Below are positions 56,750-64,000 of a stretch of 64,000 nt of DNA, piece by piece; the first letter of the stretch is position 1; every line of letters begins with the position of its first letter. Below the pieces are notes generated by a model. It searched no databases and was not told where the DNA came from. It saw only the letters and a list, made by a program, of their open reading frames with translations. Made by a program: the position numbers and the translations under genes. Origin of the DNA: Dehalococcoidia bacterium (GTDB taxonomy: Bacteria; Chloroflexota; Dehalococcoidia; Lucifugimonadales; JAGWBF01); assembly GCA_965247295.1 (NCBI GenBank), contig CBDFGQ010000008.1, positions 64,080 through 128,079 of the forward strand. Reading direction: 5' to 3'.

Positions 56750-56948
56750 GCGGCAGGGTATCTGGATCATTGGCTTCGCGACCTATGCCACACGCATGCG
56801 TCTCTCATGCTGAGGCAGGGTGTCCACCCCAAGATCGTCCAGGAACGCTTGGGACATGCGACGATCTCCACAATATTGGATACCTACAGGCACGTTCTGC
56901 TGGGCCTTGAGGAGGCCATGGCACTGCGGTTCGAGGAAGGGCTTCTAG
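56750..56948 (+). pseudogene. tyrosine-recombinase (integrase) 3' remnant, 5'-truncated and disrupted near its 3' end by the IS5-like element
   Basis: The frame directly following the TPR gene stop reads ...LRDLCHTHASLMLRQGVHPKIVQERLGHATISTILDTYRHVLLGLEEAMALRFEEGLL. This includes the catalytic-region R..H..Y blocks. It continues after the IS as EFPRPVALPKPV* (58321-58358). Confidence 0.75.
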
Positions 56949-58316
56949 CAGGCTGCTGAAGAAAGGGTTCTATGGTCGCGAAACGACCTGGTAATAGCTC
57001 ATATCGTTGCTCGATGAGTGCTTTGGGAAGGTCTGAAGCCACTTTCCTGGGTTGCAGGAGTTCCCTTTTCGCCCCTGTCAGGGCGTTGAGGGCAGACTCC
57101 GTCCTTGGGAAGTCATGCTGCCTGCAGGACCGGAGCCTCCTGTAGCTGGGTCATGAGCAGCTTGGCCATCCGCACCAGGTTATACGCAGTGGCCACCAGG
57201 TAGCCTGCTAGTCCCGTCTTGTCCACCCCTCGATACCTGGTCTTCCGAAACCCACCGACCGTCTTCATCCACCCGAAGATCTCCTCCACCCGCTTTCGTA
57301 TTCGCTGGCTCACCCGGTAGCCCGGATGCCGGGTTGTCCGCCCGTCGATGGCGCTGCGCCGGCCACTGGTGTTCTGGGCCACGTGAGCCGTGACCCTTCG
57401 GTTGCGCATCGCTTCCACACAATCCCGCGTGTCGTAGTTCTTGTCCCCACCCAGGGTCCTGGGGTGGAAGCCCCGCTCCTTCGCCCCCTCCAGGAGCTTC
57501 GGGACCGCATCTCGCTCCGCCGTCCCGCTCGCCTCGCTCACCTGGAAGTCCGTCAGCAGCCCGTTCCGGTTCTCCATCAGGGCGTGGGCCATGAACACCA
57601 GCTTGGCTTCCTTCCCTTTGCCTTTCCGAAACAATCGGGCTTCCGGGTCCGTGGTGCTTTGGTGGGTCTTATTGCGCCGTTTCTCCCCGTGAAAGTCCAC
57701 CGACGGGTTGCCGGGGTCCCCGTCGTCCGAGGCCGGCTCTCCCCCTTTGGACTTGAAACTTTTCAGACTGGCCGCCGCCTCAATCAGCGTCCCATCCACG
57801 GTGAAGTGCTCGTCCGAGAGCAAGCCGTGCCGGTCGGCCCCCACCAGGACCGTGGCAAACAGCTGTTGCCCCACTGCGTGCTCCAGCAGCCGCTGCCGGT
57901 TCTTGGTGAACACCGTCGGGTCAAAGCTGGACTCCAGGAGGTTCATATCCAGGAACCAACGATACAGCATGTTGTAGTCCAACTCCTCGCAGAACGCCCG
58001 CTCGCTGCGCACGGAAAACAGGGCGATGAGCAGCGAGGCCTTGAGTAGGCGCTCCGGTGGGATGGAGGGCCGCCCTACCTCGGCATACATCCGGTCAAAC
58101 TCGGAGGACAGCTCCCGGAGGGCCTCATCCGCCAGCGCCTTGATAGTCCGCAAGGGATGGTCCGGCGGCACCCGCCCGTCCATATCCACGAAGGTCAACA
58201 TGGGGACCTGGGGCTCCTGGCATCCGCGCATTGGGGCACCTCCAAAGATGGTCTGCCCCTATTTTATCCCAGAAGAGCCTCGGATACACCGTGAACAAGA
58301 GTTTTTCCGCAGCCTG
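56949..58316 (-). mobile_element. IS5-family insertion sequence (1368 bp)
   Basis: Imperfect ~15-bp terminal inverted repeats CAGGCTGCTGAAGAA / TTTTCCGCAGCCTG. CTAG/CTAG 4-bp duplication at 56945-48 and 58317-20, fitting the YTAR targets of IS5-group elements. A single DDE transposase ORF. Confidence 0.85.
57113..58231 (-). CDS. IS5-family DDE transposase
   Basis: 372 aa. The N-terminal region FVDMDGRVPPDHPLRTIKALADEAL...RPSIPPERLLKASLLIALFSVRSERAFCEELDYNMLYRWFL is typical of IS5/IS1182-type transposases. FTVDGTLIEAAAS also matches. Confidence 0.85.
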   Translation of the reverse strand: MRGCQEPQVPMLTFVDMDGRVPPDHPLRTIKALADEALRELSSEFDRMYAEVGRPSIPPERLLKASLLIALFSVRSERAFCEELDYNMLYRWFLDMNLLESSFDPTVFTKNRQRLLEHAVGQQLFATVLVGADRHGLLSDEHFTVDGTLIEAAASLKSFKSKGGEPASDDGDPGNPSVDFHGEKRRNKTHQSTTDPEARLFRKGKGKEAKLVFMAHALMENRNGLLTDFQVSEASGTAERDAVPKLLEGAKERGFHPRTLGGDKNYDTRDCVEAMRNRRVTAHVAQNTSGRRSAIDGRTTRHPGYRVSQRIRKRVEEIFGWMKTVGGFRKTRYRGVDKTGLAGYLVATAYNLVRMAKLLMTQLQEAPVLQAA

Positions 58317-58366
58317 CTAGAGTTCCCCCGGCCGGTGGCTCTTCCCAAACCCGTGTGAGCAAATTG

Positions 58367-58404
58367 AATAGGCCCCTGGACATTAGCGCGTCCAGGGGCC
58401 TATT
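58367..58404. terminator. bidirectional hairpin terminator between the integrase remnant and tRNA-Thr
   Basis: Stem AATAGGCCCCTGGAC / GTCCAGGGGCCTATT, 8-nt loop, T tract on the plus strand (TTTTGTAT). Confidence 0.6.
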
Positions 58405-58417
58405 TTGTATCTAATTA

Positions 58418-58492
58418 TGGAGCCGGCGAGGGGATTCGAACCCTTGACCTGCGGTTTACGAAACCGCTGCTCTACCACTGAGCTACGCCGGC
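58418..58492 (-). tRNA. tRNA-Thr (anticodon CGU), CCA encoded
   Basis: Reverse complement GCCGGCG-TA-GCTC-AGTGGTA-GAGC-A-GCGGT-TTCGTAA-ACCGC-AGGTC-AAGGG-TTCGAAT-CCCCT-CGCCGGC-T-CCA. It folds as a full cloverleaf by hand. Confidence 0.9.
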
Positions 58493-58504
58493 ATCAAAGC
58501 TAAA

Positions 58505-59701
58505 TTAAGCCTTTTGCGGGTCTGATATCTCGGTCATGTAAATCTTTTGTAAATCTGACCCCATAAAATTCTCGAAACTTTCACCCCATTGCATTACAGC
58601 TTCCCTTTGGAGACCAGGCAGGACATGAGAGTAAAGGTCTCCAGTAATTCCTATCCCCGAGTGCCCCAGCCGCTCGCTAACTACCTTGAGGTGTATTCCT
58701 TCCGCCAGCATGAGGCTGGCATGGGTATGGCGTAGGTCATGGAAGCGTATCCTACCCTTGAGTCTAGCCTTTGCAGCCAGCTTGCCGAAGATATGAGAGA
58801 TGGAGTCTGGTAGAAGAGCCGATCCGTCCAGGCGGGAGAATACTAAGCTCTCGCGCAAGAGTGTCTGTCCGAGACGGAGGGCATCCGCCTCCCTTCTCTC
58901 CCTCACTCTCTTCAAGCAGGCTACTGCTCCCAAGGGTAAATGGATCACTCGGGGCCTACCAGACTTGGGGGGTGCCATAATCAACTCCCCGGTCCTGAGC
59001 TTCACTAGACTGCGGTTAACCGACAGGGTTCCCATCTCCATATCCACATCTTGCCATCTTAAGGCCAGCAGCTCCGAGCGCCTGAGCCCGGTGAGAAGAG
59101 CCATAAGGAACAAAGGATAATAGCTGCTGCTCTGGACTACCTCAAGGAACTTCCGTACTCCTTCCCAGTCCAGAGTCTGCGACTCCCTACGCTGTGGCCT
59201 GGGCGGCTCCACGGCCTCAGCCACGTTACGGCTCAGAGCACCCATCTTAACACCCCAGCGGAGGACCTGAAATATGATCCTGTGGCAGTGTAGAACTGTC
59301 TGAGCTGATAGGCCACGGCGAAGGCAGTCGGACTCGAAGGACTGGATATGCCGGGCCGCGAGCTTCTCAAGGGCGATGCTCCCCAGGGCAGGGATAATGT
59401 ATCGATCCAAGTTGCCCCGGTAACCCTCAAGGGTGCGCTGCCTGACGTGAGTCTCGGCGTAGTCCCTAAGCCACTGGCGCAGGAAGCTCTCTACTGTTTC
59501 CCTGGAGGGCTCTACGTAGGTGCCCGTGTCAAGTTGCCCCAGCAGTTCGGTAAGACGCTTCTGAGCGTCTCTTTTGGTGCCTCGGATCACCTCGGTCTTG
59601 TACCGCTTCTTACCTGAGTCCGGGTCCACTCCGAGATATAGGTAGACTGTCCAGGAGTCCTTGTACTTGCTGGAACGTTGGCGTATGTGTCCACGGGGCA
59701 T
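58505..59701 (-). CDS. tyrosine recombinase / phage-type integrase
   Basis: 398 aa. SAM-like N-domain (VESFLRQWLRDY), catalytic blocks LTGLRRSELLAL, HDLRHTHASLML and LGHSGIGITGDLYSHV. AGGAGG RBS. Confidence 0.9.
   Translation of the reverse strand: MPRGHIRQRSSKYKDSWTVYLYLGVDPDSGKKRYKTEVIRGTKRDAQKRLTELLGQLDTGTYVEPSRETVESFLRQWLRDYAETHVRQRTLEGYRGNLDRYIIPALGSIALEKLAARHIQSFESDCLRRGLSAQTVLHCHRIIFQVLRWGVKMGALSRNVAEAVEPPRPQRRESQTLDWEGVRKFLEVVQSSSYYPLFLMALLTGLRRSELLALRWQDVDMEMGTLSVNRSLVKLRTGELIMAPPKSGRPRVIHLPLGAVACLKRVRERREADALRLGQTLLRESLVFSRLDGSALLPDSISHIFGKLAAKARLKGRIRFHDLRHTHASLMLAEGIHLKVVSERLGHSGIGITGDLYSHVLPGLQREAVMQWGESFENFMGSDLQKIYMTEISDPQKA
58537..58556 (+). repeat. TGTAAATCT x2 doublet (candidate arm-type integrase-binding sites), inside the int 3' end
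   Basis: tgtaaatct-tt-tgtaaatct. The same doublet occurs in the same orientation at 63472-63492. Confidence 0.6.
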
Positions 59702-59724
59702 AAGTCTAACCTCCTTGCTGCCCG

Positions 59725-60084
59725 CTACTCCCAGCCCTCGTGGCGTGGAACGTTTCCTAGACGAACGTGAAACACCGGCTCGCCATACTCCCCTATGAAC
59801 GGGTTTCCCGTCACGGTGTAGGCATCTATCCCGGTATAGCTCCCCGTCTCAAACATCCTCTCCGCCCGCTCCCTGGCTGCTTCCTCGCTCACTACCGATA
59901 GCGGGTCTACTGGAGTGAGGACGCTCTTATTTCGATTGTTCTTCGTCCTGACCGGCATCATGCGGAACGGCTGGACGATGTGCTTTGTCAGCTCACCTAG
60001 AGGGGCAGCCTCGGAGGTGTCTTCATCGGGCAGCGGGGTTGACTCCCCGACGATCTTAGACTTCTTGTGTCTCCGTTTAGCCAT
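59725..60084 (-). CDS. hypothetical protein (island cargo)
   Basis: 119-aa ORF immediately upstream of int on the same strand. It has a basic N-terminus. I recognise no motif. Confidence 0.5.
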   Translation of the reverse strand: MAKRRHKKSKIVGESTPLPDEDTSEAAPLGELTKHIVQPFRMMPVRTKNNRNKSVLTPVDPLSVVSEEAARERAERMFETGSYTGIDAYTVTGNPFIGEYGEPVFHVRLGNVPRHEGWE

Positions 60085-60318
60085 TTGCTCAGCCTCGTAT
60101 GAGAATCCCTCTGTGTGGTCTTACAACGCCTCTTGAGTATACAGAACGTCAGTTCTCATTCGCTACTGGCTACTGTCACTCCGTCTCACCACAACCTCCC
60201 CTGCACTGGTCGCGGTGGTATGATAGAAAGCGAGGCCAGTGAAATGGGCTTGTCGGATCGGCTCCTTAAAGGGAATTGCATACTATGTCCACCCGGAGGA
60301 ACTGAGTGATGTCTTCAA

Positions 60319-60591
60319 CTAAAGATCAAAATCAGGACGGCTGTTCCAAGCCTCTACGTTTAGAGCAAGTTGAGCGTGCAGAAAACGAAAAGAGGCGATA
60401 TCTGATGGAGCTAAATGTCCGCTTCTTTGCAGGGGGCCCAACTCGTCTATCATTCGATTCAATATCCACTGAGAAGTCCGATCTTGTGCCGGAAGCCGAT
60501 TAAGTTCTGACAGGGCGCACCCCAGCGCCGTATACAAGGCTGCCAGTGCCCCAGCAGTAAAGTCTGGATGCATCATGCCTGACCCTTCCAA
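60319..60591 (-). CDS. hypothetical protein (island cargo)
   Basis: 90-aa ORF co-oriented with its neighbours. No motif recognised. Confidence 0.35.
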   Translation of the reverse strand: MEGSGMMHPDFTAGALAALYTALGCALSELNRLPAQDRTSQWILNRMIDELGPLQRSGHLAPSDIASFRFLHAQLALNVEAWNSRPDFDL

Positions 60592-60636
60592 CCTCTATCT
60601 GCGAGCCTGTGTCCTTCCGTCTCTCACTCCTAGCCC

Positions 60637-60705
60637 CTAAAACGTCCTCGCCGTCCACCGCACCTCGCCGATGATGTCGGTCCCGTAGGACATGTCAGTC
60701 ATCAT
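60637..60705 (-). pseudogene. remnant of a second S24-peptidase repressor gene (last ~20 codons)
   Basis: It encodes MMTDMSYGTDIIGEVRWTARTF*. The 39-nt block 60643-60681 matches the 3' end of the S24 gene (61250-61288, ...TEIIGEVRWAARTL*) with 2 mismatches. Confidence 0.6.
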
Positions 60706-60823
60706 TCACTCCTGGTATCACTGCGATGTAGACGCAACGGCAGACTGGGACACATCTGCTCTTTTCCTTGGGTACTCTACCCTCAGTCCAGGAGCCCACA
60801 CCACCTCCAAGCTCTCGGGTTTT

Positions 60824-61168
60824 CTATACCTCAGATGTGTCCCTTTCGCTGACGGCCTGCGCCCGTTTGTTCAACTCTGTCTGAGTAATAAACCAGACAG
60901 CAGGAGAGAAGACAAGCCACAGGATGAATATGACCCACCTGTTGATGCTTCCGTCCGTGAGAGCCTCTACTGCCTCACCTTGCTTATATTCAGCATATAA
61001 ATTGACGAAAGGGATGAGAGAAAGTAGAGTCCATAAACCAGGGCTGCCATCCAGACCTTTGTACTCGACCATCTCCTTTGAGGTGACATAGAACCAATAG
61101 ATGCCGTAGATACCCAAGGTAATTATCATCAGTAAAACCTGCATCCCCATGCTACGCTGCTTGATCAT
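60824..61168 (-). CDS. DUF4234-type small membrane protein
   Basis: 114 aa. TLGIYGIYWFY motif, two to three TM segments, AAGGAGAG RBS. Confidence 0.75.
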   Translation of the reverse strand: MIKQRSMGMQVLLMIITLGIYGIYWFYVTSKEMVEYKGLDGSPGLWTLLSLIPFVNLYAEYKQGEAVEALTDGSINRWVIFILWLVFSPAVWFITQTELNKRAQAVSERDTSEV

Positions 61169-61243
61169 GCTCTCTCCTTACCAAGTATCCTATCAATTCG
61201 CCCTATGGCGCGGGCCTTATTCATTGTCATAGCTTCTACTCCC

Positions 61244-61620
61244 CTATAGCGTCCTCGCCGCCCACCGCACCTCGCCGATGATCTCGGTGTCGTTGGCCCA
61301 GGGCACAGGCTCCCAATCTTCATTGTCACTCTCGATCCGCCAGTTCCCCTCTTCGTCTCTGCCCACCCGCTTGACCACCAGGCCGTCCTCGGTACGCATG
61401 ACGAAGATGCGCCCAGCCCTCCGCTGCCGCCGCCTCTGGCTACGGTCCACCAGGACCGAGCATCCGTTTGGAAGGGTTGGTTCCATCGAATTGCCGCGGA
61501 CGCTAATGACGTTGCACTGAGTGGGGTCAATGGCGTGGCGATCTAGCCAGTCATTGCGGAACCATAGGCGTCCAACCACCGTCTCGTCGTATACTTCCGC
61601 TCCACCTCCAGCCGCAGCAG
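61244..61620 (-). pseudogene. LexA/CI-like S24 peptidase repressor, C-terminal domain only (N-terminal DNA-binding part cut off by the IS3 element)
   Basis: GNSMEPTL (Ser) and LVVKRV (Lys) catalytic dyad. The frame stays open upstream (AAAGGGAEVYDETVV...) right up to the IS end at 61621. Confidence 0.75.
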
Positions 61621-61629
61621 TGTTGGGTG

Positions 61630-62649
61630 TCAGCGGTTTTGGACAGTTCTGGGTCCGAGAGATTGGGGTGAAGAAGCTCCTGGTTTGAGGGTTTCTCTGA
61701 CCTCCTGATTGTACCGCCTCCGCCGGTCAAAAGTCTCTCGCTGTACCTCCTTCCTCTGGGCTAGAATTGCCTCCAGACGGCCTTCCAGCACGTCAGCCGG
61801 AGTTACAACCCTGAGCGCCTGATGATATCTTCGGTAGTTGTAGAACTCGACGAAGTCCCGGATGGCCGCCTCCAGGTCTTCCACCACCTCGTATGGCACC
61901 TGGTTAATGTCGTCTTTGAGGGTTCGGTGATATCTCTCCAGCTTCCCGTTGGTCTGAGGGTGATAGGGTGCTGCCAGGACGTGGCGAATGCCCACCACCC
62001 GCATGTACTCGCGGAAGGCCCGCGATACATAACCTGAGCCATTATCTGAGAGGAGCTTGGTCCGATCCTCCAGAGGTACATCAGTCATACCAGTAGAGTC
62101 AACAGCTTGCTGGACCACCTCTATGAGGGAGTCGGCCGTCATGTCCCGTTGCACCTTCCAGGCCAAGATGAACCGGGAGTAGTCGTCCATCACCGTCACG
62201 AGGTAGTAGTAGCCCCATCCCACTACACGGAAGTAGGAGGCATCGGTGGCCCACAGCTGGTGGGGCCCTGTGGTCTTGTGCTGGTACTCTTTGCCCGCTG
62301 CCAACTGGTATTCGATCCGTTTCACCAGACCCTCCCGTCTCAGGATACGATAGACTGTGGAGGCGGAGACCGATAGGCCTCTGTGGTCGGTGAGCCAAGC
62401 CGCCAACTGCCGGCTTCGCCAGGTCGGCATCTCACGGGCTGCCGCCAGCACTACTGCCTCCTCTTCTAGTCGCAGGCGATTCCAGGGCCTCTCAGTTCCT
62501 TCCGTACCCTCCCAACTACCCTGCCGGTGCCTCCACCTCCACCAATAATACGTGCTCCTGGAAATGCCAAGCTCCCTGAGTCGCCTGTTCTTCCCTCTAC
62601 CATGTCGCTCCACCTCAGCCACGACCTTCGATTGTTCCACTACGCTCAT
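61630..62649 (-). CDS. IS3-family transposase OrfB (DDE integrase core)
   Basis: 339 aa. WATDASYF, DDYSRFILAW, LSDNGSGYVSRAF and HPQTNGKLERYHRTLK. Confidence 0.85.
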   Translation of the reverse strand: MSVVEQSKVVAEVERHGRGKNRRLRELGISRSTYYWWRWRHRQGSWEGTEGTERPWNRLRLEEEAVVLAAAREMPTWRSRQLAAWLTDHRGLSVSASTVYRILRREGLVKRIEYQLAAGKEYQHKTTGPHQLWATDASYFRVVGWGYYYLVTVMDDYSRFILAWKVQRDMTADSLIEVVQQAVDSTGMTDVPLEDRTKLLSDNGSGYVSRAFREYMRVVGIRHVLAAPYHPQTNGKLERYHRTLKDDINQVPYEVVEDLEAAIRDFVEFYNYRRYHQALRVVTPADVLEGRLEAILAQRKEVQRETFDRRRRYNQEVRETLKPGASSPQSLGPRTVQNR

Positions 62650-63047
62650 GCGCCGGTGCCGTTGTCGTGTAGGGGCGGCAGAGCTGTTTTTTTGAAGCGG
62701 TGCAACTCCAGGGACAACTCACCCACCAGCTGCTTCAGTTCACTGTTCTCCCGCTTGAGCTGCTCTATCTCTTGCCGGGTCGCATCACGCACACTGTCCC
62801 GAGTCAACCTCTCCTTCCCAGCTTCCATAAACCCCTTCGTCCAGGCGTAGTAGGAGTGGGGTTTGATTCCTTCCCGTCGGCACAGGTCATTAACGGTAGT
62901 CTCCCGTCTGAACCCCTCCAAGACGATGCGAATCTTCTCTTCAGGGGTATACTTACGGCGGGTCGCTGCACGGACCTGACGCACGAAGCTTCGTGTCTCC
63001 TGGCTTCGCTCCTCAGCTTGACTGGCCTGATCCCCTACCTGGGTCAT
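62646..63047 (-). CDS. IS3-family transposase OrfA (HTH)
   Basis: 133 aa. RKYTPEEKIRIVLEGFRRETTVNDLCRREGIKPHSYYAWTKGF. Its TGA overlaps the orfB ATG (ATGA). Confidence 0.85.
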   Translation of the reverse strand: MTQVGDQASQAEERSQETRSFVRQVRAATRRKYTPEEKIRIVLEGFRRETTVNDLCRREGIKPHSYYAWTKGFMEAGKERLTRDSVRDATRQEIEQLKRENSELKQLVGELSLELHRFKKTALPPLHDNGTGA

Positions 63048-63180
63048 CTATGACTCCTTTCACTTAGGGTTAATCTACCCCTCTGAAGGAGCCTCTACCA
63101 CCCCCAACCTCCTCGGTTTTCTAGGCCTCAATAGTGTCCAATTGCGCTGACACCCTACACTATGTAGGTTAGTCTTTCAC

Positions 63181-63459
63181 ATGACTACGATAGAAGAACG
63201 GGTAGCCTCCCTCGAGAATCTTTTCCAGCAGGGACGACAGGAACACAAGGACATCGCCGCCACACTGGAGAGGCTGGCAGCCCAGGTCTCCAAGCTTGAG
63301 GTCTACCTGGCCAACAGCAACGGTGGCCTGACGCTCTCGGTACGGGACAAACGGGTGAAGTTCGCCGGGTCTATGGCACTGCCCTGGTCGCTGACCCTGG
63401 TCGGTGGTGGCAGCGGTGGTGTAGGCTGGCTCCTGGGACGGGTGTTCGGGGCCTGGTAG
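63181..63459 (+). CDS. hypothetical small protein with an N-terminal coiled coil and a C-terminal TM segment
   Basis: 92 aa. ...ALPWSLTLVGGGSGGVGWLLGRVFGAW. No clear RBS. Confidence 0.35.
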   Translation: MTTIEERVASLENLFQQGRQEHKDIAATLERLAAQVSKLEVYLANSNGGLTLSVRDKRVKFAGSMALPWSLTLVGGGSGGVGWLLGRVFGAW

Positions 63460-63471
63460 TTCACGCAAACT

Positions 63472-63492
63472 TGTAAATCTATTTGTAAATCT
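63472..63492 (+). repeat. TGTAAATCT x2 doublet (second copy)
   Basis: tgtaaatct-att-tgtaaatct. Confidence 0.6.
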
Positions 63493-63589
63493 ACTCCGTT
63501 ACACCCTGTTTTACTTAACCCACTTTTAGCTTTGGAGAGGACGGGGCGGGGTATGCGGTTTGTAGCTAATTGCGCTCAGTTGTTCTACG

Positions 63590-63641
63590 GCTAACGGTTT
63601 TTGAGACCGCCGCGTCTACCATTCCGCTGAGCTACGCCGGC
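63590..63641 (-). pseudogene. tRNA-like 5' fragment (acceptor, D arm and anticodon arm only; no T arm or 3' acceptor strand)
   Basis: Reverse complement GCCGGCGTAGCTCAG-CGGAATGGTAGA-CGC-G-GCGGT-CTCAAAA-ACCGT... The first 15 nt are identical to tRNA-Thr and the anticodon stem is nearly identical. The loop reads CAA. Nothing downstream can form a T arm. Confidence 0.6.
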
Positions 63642-63753
63642 CCGCACCCGAATGGCGGGACAAGAGGTTAGCGAAACGGGTCTCCACGTTCAGGTTCGCC
63701 GAAGAGTATTTTATCACGGGCCACGCCGAAGGGGAAACGCCGCGGACCCACCC

Positions 63754-63799
63754 AAAAAACCGCCCCGGACCCTTCCTAGCATGGAATCCGGGGCGGTTT
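63754..63799 (-). terminator. intrinsic terminator of the minus-strand gene ending at 63822
   Basis: Stem AAACCGCCCCGGA / TCCGGGGCGGTTT. On the minus strand it is followed by TTTTTTGGG. Confidence 0.7.
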
Positions 63800-63821
63800 A
63801 TTCCAGATCGCTACGTGTACT

Positions 63822-64000
63822 CTACTTGATGTGCCCAGCCACCTCGACTACCAGGTTGGCCGCCGTGCTGATCCCGTGGTGTTGTGGGACCTTTAGCATG
63901 GCGTTTCTGTACTTGGGGTGCTTGGCGACGTAGTCCCTCACCTGCTCCATGGTGACGTTCTGCTCCTCTAGCACGTCCTTGATCTCCTGACGAGCCTTCA
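63822..64000 (-). CDS. hypothetical protein, C-terminal part only (N-terminus beyond the window edge)
   Basis: My own translation gives ...KARQEIKDVLEEQNVTMEQVRDYVAKHPKYRNAMLKVPQHHGISTAANLVVEVAGHIK*, followed by a terminator. It is not in the ORF track because it has no in-window start. Confidence 0.45.
   Translation of the reverse strand, partial: KARQEIKDVLEEQNVTMEQVRDYVAKHPKYRNAMLKVPQHHGISTAANLVVEVAGHIK

What the first reader, a model, noticed from the sequence alone, without database searches (positions are those of the whole stretch)
58418..63641. An integrase island sits on the 5' side of tRNA-Thr, bounded by a 15-nt repeat of the tRNA 5' end and a diverged tRNA-like fragment
tRNA-Thr(CGU) is on the minus strand, with its 5' end at 58492. 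The intact integrase ends 12 nt beyond it, so the element lies upstream of the tRNA rather than at the usual 3' end. The 15 nt CTGAGCTACGCCGGC (tRNA positions 1-15) recur at 63627-63641. There they head a tRNA-like 5' fragment whose D loop and anticodon loop differ (CTCAAAA, anticodon CAA, against TTCGTAA) and which lacks a T arm. Just inside both borders are co-oriented doublets of TGTAAATCT (58537-58556, within the last codons of int, and 63472-63492). These are placed as lambda-type arm sites would be around an attP core. CAAAGCTAAA (58495-58504) and its inverse TTTAGCTTTG (63525-63534) also flank the region. This fits site-specific recombination within the first 15 nt of the tRNA gene. That would make the element supply the tRNA's upstream (promoter) region, which is an uncommon integration geometry.
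Basis: partly seen in the sequence, partly recalled or inferred. Interest (0 to 1): 0.65.

Follow-up and report, generated by a model that had tools for sequence, protein, structure and literature searches.

The report
Decayed prophage upstream of tRNA-Thr
This is the 5-kb wreck of a prophage that inserted on the upstream (5') side of a threonine tRNA gene by recombining in the anticodon loop, an uncommon but documented geometry, and the 15-base repeat is what is left of the displaced tRNA half, not the crossover site.

Summary
The geometry is also right. The element lies upstream of the tRNA and supplies its 5' half and upstream region.

The proposed mechanism, crossover within tRNA nt 1-15, is not supported. 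In relatives of this integrase the duplicated block ends or starts exactly at the anticodon loop. A homologous distal junction (L369, P' arm about 92% identical) carries tRNA-Thr nt 1-39 fused to the same P' arm.

The window's distal piece is a hybrid. It joins Thr nt 1-14 to nt 10-44 of a tRNA-Leu(CAA)-type half, the target of a 75%-identical sister integrase, and then to P'. Its loop (CTCAAAA) differs from the tRNA's (TTCGTAA), so the two ends are not a matched att pair.

The island keeps int, ORF119, a DUF4234 gene, a truncated repressor, an IS3 deletion scar and a lysis-end ORF. Islands with 5' tRNA fragments are documented (159 of 3919 in Islander). I rate it a new member of a known kind, of moderate-to-low interest.

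The parts
58418..58492 (-). Functional tRNA-Thr(CGU). Inferred chimera: element-supplied 5' half (nt 1 to about 37) plus host 3' half. The anticodon loop TTCGTAA lies at 58456-58462 and is the inferred crossover (overlap) region.
   Evidence: ARAGORN; Rfam 70.6 bits; family crossover position
58493..58504 (-). 12-nt spacer between the int stop and tRNA +1. It holds the box TTTAGCTTTG (58495-58504). Similar boxes (TTTAGCTWTG) sit 2 nt upstream of the tRNA in Thr-, Ser- and Leu-type relatives. The function of the box is unknown.
   Evidence: The sigma-70 scan found no promoter on the tRNA strand (one weak + strand match only).
58505..59701 (-). Intact lambda-type tyrosine integrase, 398 aa, with arm-binding, core-binding (SAM-like) and catalytic domains.
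   Evidence: Pfam and PHROG hits. 95% identical to L081's integrase, dN/dS 0.16.
58537..58556 (+). P-arm arm-type site doublet TGTAAATCT-tt-TGTAAATCT, lying inside the last codons of int.
   Evidence: Exact copies only here and at 63472-63492. Conserved as RGATTTACAAAAGATKTACA in 6 relatives in two different reading frames.
59725..60084 (-). ORF119, a conserved partner gene directly upstream of int. No known domain; it could be a directionality factor, which was not tested.
   Evidence: 91% identical to the ORF upstream of the Leu-type int in L284. No Pfam or PHROG hit.
60824..61168 (-). DUF4234 membrane protein of the lysogeny module.
   Evidence: Pfam. 97% identical to the gene next to int in L368.
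61244..61579 (-). C-terminal S24 peptidase domain of a CI/LexA-like repressor. The N-terminal DNA-binding part was lost at the IS3 junction.
   Evidence: Pfam PF00717, PHROG_4 repressor
61619..63161 (-). IS3-family insertion sequence (orfA 62646-63047, orfB 61630-62649; 42-nt imperfect inverted ends) without a target duplication. It marks the deletion of the prophage interior.
   Evidence: flanks read
63181..63459 (+). ORF92, coiled coil plus C-terminal membrane helix. It is the last gene after the tail/baseplate module in related prophages.
   Evidence: 18 homologues. In L369 and L370 it follows baseplate genes.
63460..63592 (-). P' arm of the phage attachment site. It includes the arm-type doublet 63472-63492 and the inverted TTTAGCTTTG box 63525-63534.
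   Evidence: About 92% identical to the P' arm in L369
63593..63627 (-). tRNA-Leu(CAA)-type D arm and anticodon arm (Leu nt 10-44), with loop CTCAAAA at 63599-63605.
   Evidence: 34 of 35 identical to L284 tRNA-Leu(CAA). In each of four metagenome runs, 10-13 contigs share 63593-63627 and continue as GCCGAAGTG, the true Leu 5' end.
63628..63641 (-). Stump (nt 1-14; nt 15 is shared with the Leu part) of the displaced host tRNA-Thr 5' half. The native upstream flank begins at 63642.
   Evidence: In runs X3 and X5 the same flank continues into normal Thr ...GCTCAG|TGGTAGAGCAG.
56780..58358 (+). Not part of the island. Remnant of a second family integrase in the conventional 3'-side geometry (56780-56943 and 58322-58358), split by an IS5/IS1182-like IS (56944-58321). 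The hairpin 58367-58404 follows.
   Evidence: tblastn 51% identity to int residues 322-376; inverted repeats; Pfam hits of the transposase

Best explanation
**What it is.** The region 58493-63641 is the remnant of a temperate phage of a Dehalococcoidia-like host.

**How it integrated.** Its lambda-type tyrosine integrase recombines in the 7-nt anticodon loop of a tRNA gene, but in the less usual orientation. The phage attP carries the tRNA's 5' half plus its upstream region, next to the 3' end of int. The layout is P arm: arm-type doublet, TTTAGCTTTG box, tRNA nt 1-37. After integration the working tRNA-Thr(CGU) is a chimera with a phage-supplied 5' half. The host's original 5' half is displaced to the far end, next to the phage P' arm (second arm-type doublet) and the lysis-end gene ORF92.

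**What happened afterwards.**
- An IS3-associated deletion removed the roughly 30-kb interior, from the repressor N-terminus to just before ORF92.
- The displaced Thr half was rearranged. Only nt 1-14/15 remain, joined out of register to nt 10-44 of a tRNA-Leu(CAA)-type half. The junction has 1 nt of microhomology (G), or GCGG if the Thr copy had C16.

**Origin of the hybrid (inferred).** The Leu-type piece most likely came from a sister phage whose integrase (75% identical, same arm sites) targets tRNA-Leu(CAA). Two routes are possible:
- recombination anchored in the shared P' arm and ORF92 homology, ending at microhomology inside the tRNA half;
- tandem or secondary-site integration followed by deletion.

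**Consequence (inferred).** The distal loop is CTCAAAA and the proximal loop is TTCGTAA, so the two ends no longer share an overlap sequence. The remnant is probably locked in place.

**Shown versus inferred.** Shown: the anatomy, the family geometry, the position of the duplicated block in relatives, and the L369 junction. Inferred: the crossover position in this particular element, the origin of the hybrid, and the loss of excision.
For: **Integrase and arm sites**
- The integrase has an arm-binding domain.
- The arm doublet is kept at the DNA level in two different reading frames across Thr-, Ser-, Trp- and Leu-type relatives.

**Geometry in relatives**
- Of 83 family loci with a tRNA directly after int (two of them are the same contig held in two collections), 56 are convergent and 27 co-oriented. 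The co-oriented set includes the three closest in that set.
- Four more close relatives fetched separately are also co-oriented: Ser, Trp, Leu and Thr.
- Phage terminase and portal genes lie upstream of int, and host genes follow the tRNA, in L282 and L284.

**Crossover position**
- The duplicated block covers the upstream flank to the last loop base in 5'-side loci L028/L244 and L042.
- It starts at the first loop base in 3'-side loci L014, L058 and L066, and six bases earlier in L016.
- L369 reads Thr nt 1-39 | P' arm | ORF92, with P' about 92% identical to the window's.

**The hybrid**
- The Leu identity of 63593-63627 is shown.
- The upstream flank is the native Thr flank (X3 and X5 contigs).
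- The exact hybrid junction is present in independent runs X1 and X4.

**Decay**
- IS3 lacks a target duplication and sits between the truncated repressor and ORF92.
Against: - No attP, empty attB or excision junction for this element was recovered. No contig skipped 58492 to 63642 among the joints listed, though 19 further joints were not shown.
- Only one homologous P' arm (L369) was found. The pattern scan of reference genomes found none.
- The origin of the Thr/Leu hybrid needs at least one extra, unobserved event.
- An 89-nt metagenome contig joins a Thr D arm to a CTCAAAA loop and P'. This shows heterogeneity that I cannot phase.
- L368 shows int, a full tRNA-Thr and then ORF92. So some relatives may carry or duplicate a whole tRNA.
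Confidence: 0.75

Rival explanations
1. The integrase crosses over within tRNA nt 1-15 (acceptor/D-arm sublocation). The 15-nt repeat is the att core, and the Leu-like stretch is simply phage P' DNA.
For: - The only exact identity between the two ends is the 15 nt (17 of 18).
- A D-loop sublocation with upstream integration has been reported for some Klebsiella islands (preprint 10.1101/2020.11.02.365908).
Against: - L369 has the same P' arm preceded by Thr nt 1-39, not nt 1-15.
- Family members duplicate up to, or from, the anticodon loop.
- The stretch after nt 15 is 34 of 35 identical to a real tRNA-Leu(CAA) 5' half. A P' arm has no reason to be that.
- The junction is out of register by 4-5 nt.
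- Other samples carry the same flank with longer normal Thr sequence.
Confidence: 0.08
2. The tRNA-Thr is phage cargo or lies wholly inside attP. The true element boundary would then be beyond the tRNA 3' end, and the distal fragment would be unrelated to this integration.
For: - L368 shows int, a complete tRNA-Thr, 75 nt and then the ORF92 end, an attP-like order with a whole tRNA.
- An integrase remnant and an IS lie just beyond the tRNA 3' end in the window.
Against: - In L081, L282 and L284 ordinary host genes follow the tRNA directly.
- L369 has a half tRNA at the distal end.
- The integrase remnant left of the tRNA is in the conventional convergent geometry of a separate element.
- Nothing else in the 64 kb matches the tRNA 3' part.
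Confidence: 0.07
3. The distal piece is a decaying second tRNA gene, or a chance resemblance, and there is no att relationship.
For: tRNA 5' ends share TAGCTCAG-type sequence. The Rfam hit is below threshold.
Against: - A 15-mer that includes the Thr-specific acceptor strand occurs only twice in the window.
- The piece abuts a P' arm with arm-type sites identical to those in int.
- The piece mixes Thr-type and Leu-type features in a way no tRNA gene does, and it lacks a T arm.
Confidence: 0.02

Closest known systems
Genomic islands and prophages with a displaced 5' tDNA fragment (Islander database class; anticodon-centred 'A' attP sites)
   Same: A tyrosine integrase is involved. The island lies between a regenerated tRNA gene and a displaced same-orientation 5' fragment upstream. 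The crossover is at the anticodon loop. Tandem arrays occur (L369).
   Different: This class is a small minority: 159 of 3919 islands in Islander (PMC4383910). Here the displaced fragment is a Thr/Leu hybrid, the interior is deleted, and the host is an uncultured Dehalococcoidia-like bacterium. The closest cultured-phage integrases are no more than 36% identical.
Classical anticodon-loop tRNA integration from the 3' side (for example P22 at thrW and HP1 at a tRNA-Leu gene, recalled from my own knowledge of Williams 2002, which I could not read here)
   Same: The sublocation is the same (the 7-nt anticodon loop flanked by the symmetric stem). Both use a lambda-type Int with arm sites. Most relatives of this integrase, 56 of 83, use this geometry.
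   Different: Those elements carry the tRNA 3' portion and sit downstream. This clade carries the 5' half plus the upstream region and sits upstream, so the element controls the sequences that drive the tRNA.
Klebsiella islands integrating upstream of arg2 with a D-loop sublocation (bioRxiv 10.1101/2020.11.02.365908)
   Same: Integration is upstream (5' side) of a tRNA gene.
   Different: The evidence here places the crossover at the anticodon loop, not the D loop.
Lambda attP architecture (core flanked by arm-type Int sites)
   Same: The integrase has an N-terminal arm-binding domain. Repeated 9-mers lie on both sides of the core. In a reconstructed attP they would sit about 75-95 nt before and about 105-125 nt after the anticodon loop.
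   Different: The P-arm sites lie inside the integrase coding sequence, and the core is a tRNA half. Binding was not tested.

Membership tests
Lambda-type (arm-binding) tyrosine integrase | Phage_integrase catalytic domain with a SAM-like core-binding domain and an N-terminal arm-binding domain | tested here: met
   PF00589 1.8e-25, PF14659 3.3e-11, PF14657 5.2e-5 (above its cut-off). PHROG_1 integrase 2.8e-71.
Lambda-type (arm-binding) tyrosine integrase | Repeated arm-type sites on both sides of the core in attP | tested here: met
   The four exact TGTAAATCT copies are confined to the two ends. The proximal doublet is conserved in two reading frames and the distal doublet is conserved in L369. 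Binding itself was not tested.
tRNA-gene island with displaced 5' tDNA fragment (Islander signature) | An intact tRNA gene, a same-orientation 5' end fragment upstream, and an integrase gene between them | tested here: met
   The fragment is on the same strand, 5149 nt upstream.
tRNA-gene island with displaced 5' tDNA fragment (Islander signature) | The fragment is identical to the tRNA from its end up to the crossover sublocation | tested here: not met
   In the window, identity stops at nt 15 (17 of 18) and Leu-type sequence follows. The feature is met in the homologous junction L369, with nt 1-39. The window's distal end is therefore a rearranged att site.
Anticodon-loop sublocation integrase subfamily | The att identity block begins or ends at the anticodon loop | tested here: met
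   Met for relatives: L028/L244 and L042 end at the last loop base, L014, L058 and L066 start at the first loop base (L016 starts six bases earlier), and L369 ends 2 nt past the loop. For the window's own element it is inferred, not shown.
Functional (excision-competent) prophage | Complete structural, replication and lysis modules, and matched attL/attR overlap sequences | tested here: not met
   Only int, ORF119, DUF4234, half a repressor, an IS3 and ORF92 remain. The loops are CTCAAAA and TTCGTAA.
Genuine second tRNA gene at 63573-63641 | A cloverleaf with a T arm, called by tRNA finders | tested here: not met
   ARAGORN makes no call. Rfam tRNA scores 20.7 bits against a threshold of 29, with no T arm.

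The most novel reading that the evidence does not exclude
This integrase clade may change tRNA targets by swapping a cassette made of the 3' half of int (catalytic residues about 225-320 plus the tail) together with the adjacent tRNA 5' half, while the arm-binding and core-binding domains and the arm sites stay fixed. On this reading the window's Thr/Leu hybrid half is a direct footprint of cross-recombination between a Thr-specific and a Leu-specific sister phage, that is, a captured intermediate of att-site switching. A corollary follows: the working tRNA-Thr here may be built from two element-supplied halves, and its expression may depend on prophage DNA. That dependence could explain why int stays intact in otherwise dead remnants.
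Probability: 0.25. Interest if true: 0.55.

Novelty: new member of a known kind. Interest (0 to 1): 0.35.

Why it matters
The finding is mostly housekeeping. It correctly marks a decayed prophage and its ends in an uncultured, IS-rich Dehalococcoidia-like genome, and it corrects the inferred crossover site.

The wider value is comparative. Here is a compact integrase clade that always sits upstream of its tRNA target. It has moved between four tRNA identities (Thr, Ser, Trp, Leu) with nearly unchanged arm-binding and core-binding domains. It keeps its arm sites inside its own coding sequence.

Such a clade would be a convenient natural series for asking two questions:
- which integrase residues read the anticodon stem-loop;
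- what it costs a host to have a tRNA's 5' half and upstream region supplied by a phage.

Tried and rejected
- **Arm-doublet scans.** The IMG/VR scan for the doublet gave three chance hits, none next to an integrase homologue.
- **IMG/VR and JGI metagenome relatives of int.** All are 51% identical or less. They were useful only for geometry statistics.
- **Distal ends of close relatives.** L001's apparent 5'-half match at 1563 lies inside a coding gene and is chance. Within the flanks I could fetch, no distal half turned up for L081, L001 or L003; for L282 and L284 the 10 kb above int is still phage DNA.
- **ORF92 as bait.** It found nothing in reference genomes. Among ENA homologues only L369 keeps this P' arm. 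L370 to L375 have other integration modules or neighbours. The P' pattern scan of reference genomes found nothing.
- **Excision and transcription evidence.** Metagenome contigs showed neither an empty site nor a circular junction among the joints listed (19 more were not shown). The unitigs are too short to phase. The metatranscriptome run covered only the tRNA.
- **Promoter.** The sigma-70-type scan found no promoter on the tRNA strand between int and the tRNA.
- **Literature.** Williams 2002 could not be opened.
- **Look-ups that failed.** The window's own integrase, P0121 and P0125 were not on record.


Full report
**1. The observation**

- ARAGORN finds one tRNA in the 64 kb, tRNA-Thr(CGU) at 58418-58492 on the minus strand. 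Rfam scores it 70.6 bits.
- The ORF 58505-59701(-) is an intact 398-aa tyrosine integrase with an arm-binding domain, a SAM-like core-binding domain and a catalytic domain. Twelve bases separate its stop codon from tRNA position 1.
- CTGAGCTACGCCGGC occurs only at 58478-58492 and 63627-63641, even with two mismatches allowed. The match is 17 of 18 when extended.
- TGTAAATCT occurs exactly four times, all in the doublets at 58537/58548 and 63472/63484.
- TTTAGCTTTG occurs twice, inverted, at 58495-58504 and 63525-63534, against 0.02 expected.
- The distal piece is tRNA-like but not a gene. ARAGORN makes no call, and Rfam gives 20.7 bits against a threshold of 29, with no T arm.

**2. What lies between the two ends**

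Reading the minus strand from the tRNA upward:
- int;
- a 119-aa ORF with no known domain;
- a DUF4234 membrane protein;
- the C-terminal S24 peptidase domain of a CI/LexA-type repressor whose N-terminus is missing;
- an IS3-family element (61619-63161) with 42-nt imperfect inverted ends and no target duplication;
- on the other strand, a 92-aa coiled-coil and membrane-helix ORF (63181-63459).

In relatives, ORF92 homologues close the tail/baseplate module of prophages (L369, L370). ORF119 and the DUF4234 gene sit next to int (L284, L368). The island therefore holds the two ends of one prophage, and the IS3 marks the loss of the interior.

**3. Geometry in relatives**

The integrase has thousands of homologues. 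I scored 83 loci in which a tRNA directly follows int; two of them are the same contig held in two collections. Of these, 56 have the conventional convergent arrangement and 27 are co-oriented like the window.

The closest relatives are all co-oriented:

| Locus | Identity to window int | tRNA |
|---|---|---|
| L081 | 95% | Thr(CGU) |
| L001, L282 | about 80% | Ser(UGA) |
| L283 | 78% | Trp(CCA) |
| L284 | 75% | Leu(CAA) |
| L003 | 65% | Thr(CGU) |
| L368 | 57% | Thr(CGU) |

In L282 and L284, terminase and portal genes lie upstream of int, and ordinary host genes follow the tRNA. So the element does sit on the 5' side of the tRNA.

**4. Where the crossover is**

Where both ends of a relative fall inside the fetched DNA, the duplicated block is informative.
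- In co-oriented loci (L028/L244 Ser-CGA, L042 Mesorhizobium Ser-UGA) it runs from the upstream flank to the last base of the anticodon loop.
- In convergent loci it runs from the first base of the loop (L014, L058, L066), or from six bases earlier (L016), to beyond the 3' end.
- The part common to both is the 7-nt loop. This is the classical anticodon-loop sublocation, flanked by the symmetric stem.

The decisive locus is L369, reached through an ORF92 homologue. It reads, in tRNA sense: an integrase pseudogene of another element, about 105 nt, GCCGGCGCAGCTCAGTGGTAGAGCAGCGGTTTCGTAAAC (Thr nt 1-39), then TGTTAGCCGCAGAACAACTGAGCG...CCAAAGCTAAAAGTGGG...AGATTTACAAATAGATTTACA, then the ORF92 end.

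From GTTAGCC onward this is about 92% identical to window 63460-63590 (blastn gives 89% over 202 nt including the tRNA part). A phage with the same P' arm has therefore recombined at the Thr anticodon loop, not within nt 1-15.

**5. What the window's distal piece is**

In sense it reads GCCGGCGTAGCTCA-GCGGAATGGTAGACGCGGCGGTCTCAAAAACCGTT-AGCCGTAG... (P').
- The middle 35 nt (63593-63627) match L284's tRNA-Leu(CAA) at 34 of 35 positions.
- In each of four metagenome runs, 10-13 contigs share exactly 63593-63627 and then continue as GCCGAAGTG. That is the true 5' end of tRNA-Leu(CAA) in this community.

The piece is therefore Thr nt 1-14, joined out of register to Leu nt 10-44, joined to P'. The junction shares one base (G), or GCGG if the Thr copy carried C16. 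An X3 contig does carry C16.

The flank beyond 63641 is the native Thr upstream flank. In runs X3 and X5 the same flank (63627-63915 and 63627-63949) continues into normal Thr sequence...GCTCAG|TGGTAGAGCAG. Runs X1 and X4 carry the window's hybrid junction exactly, so it is not an assembly artefact.

The distal loop is CTCAAAA and the proximal loop is TTCGTAA. The two ends are thus not a matched pair. If the loop is the overlap region, Int-mediated excision should be blocked (inference).

**6. How the hybrid may have arisen (inference)**

A Leu-specific sister phage exists (L284). Its neighbouring ORF119 is 91% identical to the window's, and its arm doublet differs only at the first base (G for A). 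Two routes fit.
- Recombination of a Leu-type attP with the resident prophage end, anchored in the shared P' and ORF92 homology and ending at microhomology inside the tRNA half.
- Secondary-site or tandem integration followed by deletion between the two 5' halves.

Two observations show that such mixed and tandem states occur. An 89-nt X3 contig joins a Thr D arm to GCGGT-CTCAAAA-ACCGTT-P'. L369 has a tandem arrangement of an integrase pseudogene, a Thr half and P'. I cannot choose between the two routes.

**7. Arm sites and the upstream box**

The int-proximal doublet is conserved as RGATTTACAAAAGATKTACA in six relatives.
- In the window and L081 it is read as ...SDLQKIY...
- In the others it is read one base out of phase as ...(R/G)FTKD(L/V)Q....

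Conservation across reading frames points to a DNA-level function, as expected for arm-type sites of an integrase with an arm-binding domain.

TTTAGCTWTG lies 2 nt upstream of tRNA +1 in Thr-, Ser- and Leu-type elements. It recurs inverted in both known P' arms. Its role is unknown. The sigma-70 scan found no promoter on the tRNA strand between int and the tRNA, so the tRNA may be transcribed from within or through int (inference).

**8. Integrase mosaicism**

Across the Thr-, Ser-, Trp- and Leu-type enzymes, identity varies sharply along the protein.
- The arm-binding and core-binding domains are 92-97% identical.
- Catalytic-domain residues about 225-320 fall to 33-43%.
- The C-terminal tail differs.

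Target choice thus travels with the 3' half of int and the adjacent tRNA half. The window and L081 integrases differ at 56 of 1194 nt, with dN/dS 0.16.

**9. Comparison with what is known**

- Islands with a displaced 5' tDNA fragment are recorded: 159 of 3919 in Islander, which also classes attP sites as anticodon-centred or T-stem (PMC4383910).
- Upstream integration with a D-loop sublocation has been reported for some Klebsiella islands (preprint 10.1101/2020.11.02.365908).
- The nearest cultured-phage integrases are Bacillus phage enzymes at 36% identity or less.

I file this as a new member of a known kind: a decayed 5'-side, anticodon-loop tRNA prophage with a rearranged distal att site.

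**10. Limits**

- No attP, empty site or excision junction of this element was recovered.
- Only one homologous P' arm is available.
- The crossover position in this element rests on relatives.
- The origin of the hybrid and the loss of excision are inferences.

Noticed in passing
window 56780-56943 and 58322-58358 (+), with an IS at 56944-58321: A second integrase of the same family (51% identical to residues 322-376) survives as a C-terminal remnant. It is in the conventional convergent geometry and stops 60 nt from the tRNA 3' end. An IS5/IS1182-like element with 20-nt inverted ends and CTAG flanks splits it. The tRNA-Thr is therefore bracketed by family integrases on both sides, and both of its halves may be element-supplied.
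   Followed up: partly
window 58505-59701, and the integrases of L081, L282, L283, L284: The integrases are mosaic. The arm-binding and core-binding domains are 92-97% identical across the Thr, Ser, Trp and Leu specificities, but catalytic residues about 225-320 are only 33-43% identical. The arm-site doublet is kept in two different reading frames.
   Followed up: partly
window 61619-63161: The IS3-family element has no target-site duplication. It sits between a repressor gene that has lost its N-terminus and the start of ORF92. This is the signature of an IS-associated deletion of the prophage interior.
   Followed up: partly
window 60634-60689 and 60790-60842: There is a 56-nt copy (88% identical) of the 3' end of the S24 repressor gene (61241-61296). 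There is also a 53-nt stretch 75% identical to the inner right end of the IS3 (63087-63139). These look like debris of a second repressor/IS junction.
   Followed up: no
L369 10455-11230 (minus strand): In the related genome the displaced Thr 5' half is itself preceded by a co-oriented integrase pseudogene (43% identical). This suggests tandem accretion of elements on the 5' side of tRNA-Thr.
   Followed up: partly
L368 10394-10590: A 57%-identical integrase is followed by a complete tRNA-Thr(CGU), and 75 nt later by the 3' end of an ORF92 homologue. No AGATTTACA sites are present. This is either an attP-like arrangement with a whole tRNA or another array, and it remains unexplained.
   Followed up: no
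metagenome runs X1, X3, X4, X5 laid on window 63440-63720: The distal junction is polymorphic between samples. X1 and X4 carry the window's Thr/Leu hybrid. X3 and X5 carry the same flank with normal Thr sequence. X3 also has an 89-nt contig that joins a Thr D arm (C16) to a CTCAAAA loop and P'.
   Followed up: partly
window 58367-58404: A perfect 15-bp hairpin (AATAGGCCCCTGGAC / GTCCAGGGGCCTATT) lies between the tRNA 3' end and the stop codon of the integrase remnant. It is likely a bidirectional terminator, although the simple terminator scan did not call it.
   Followed up: no
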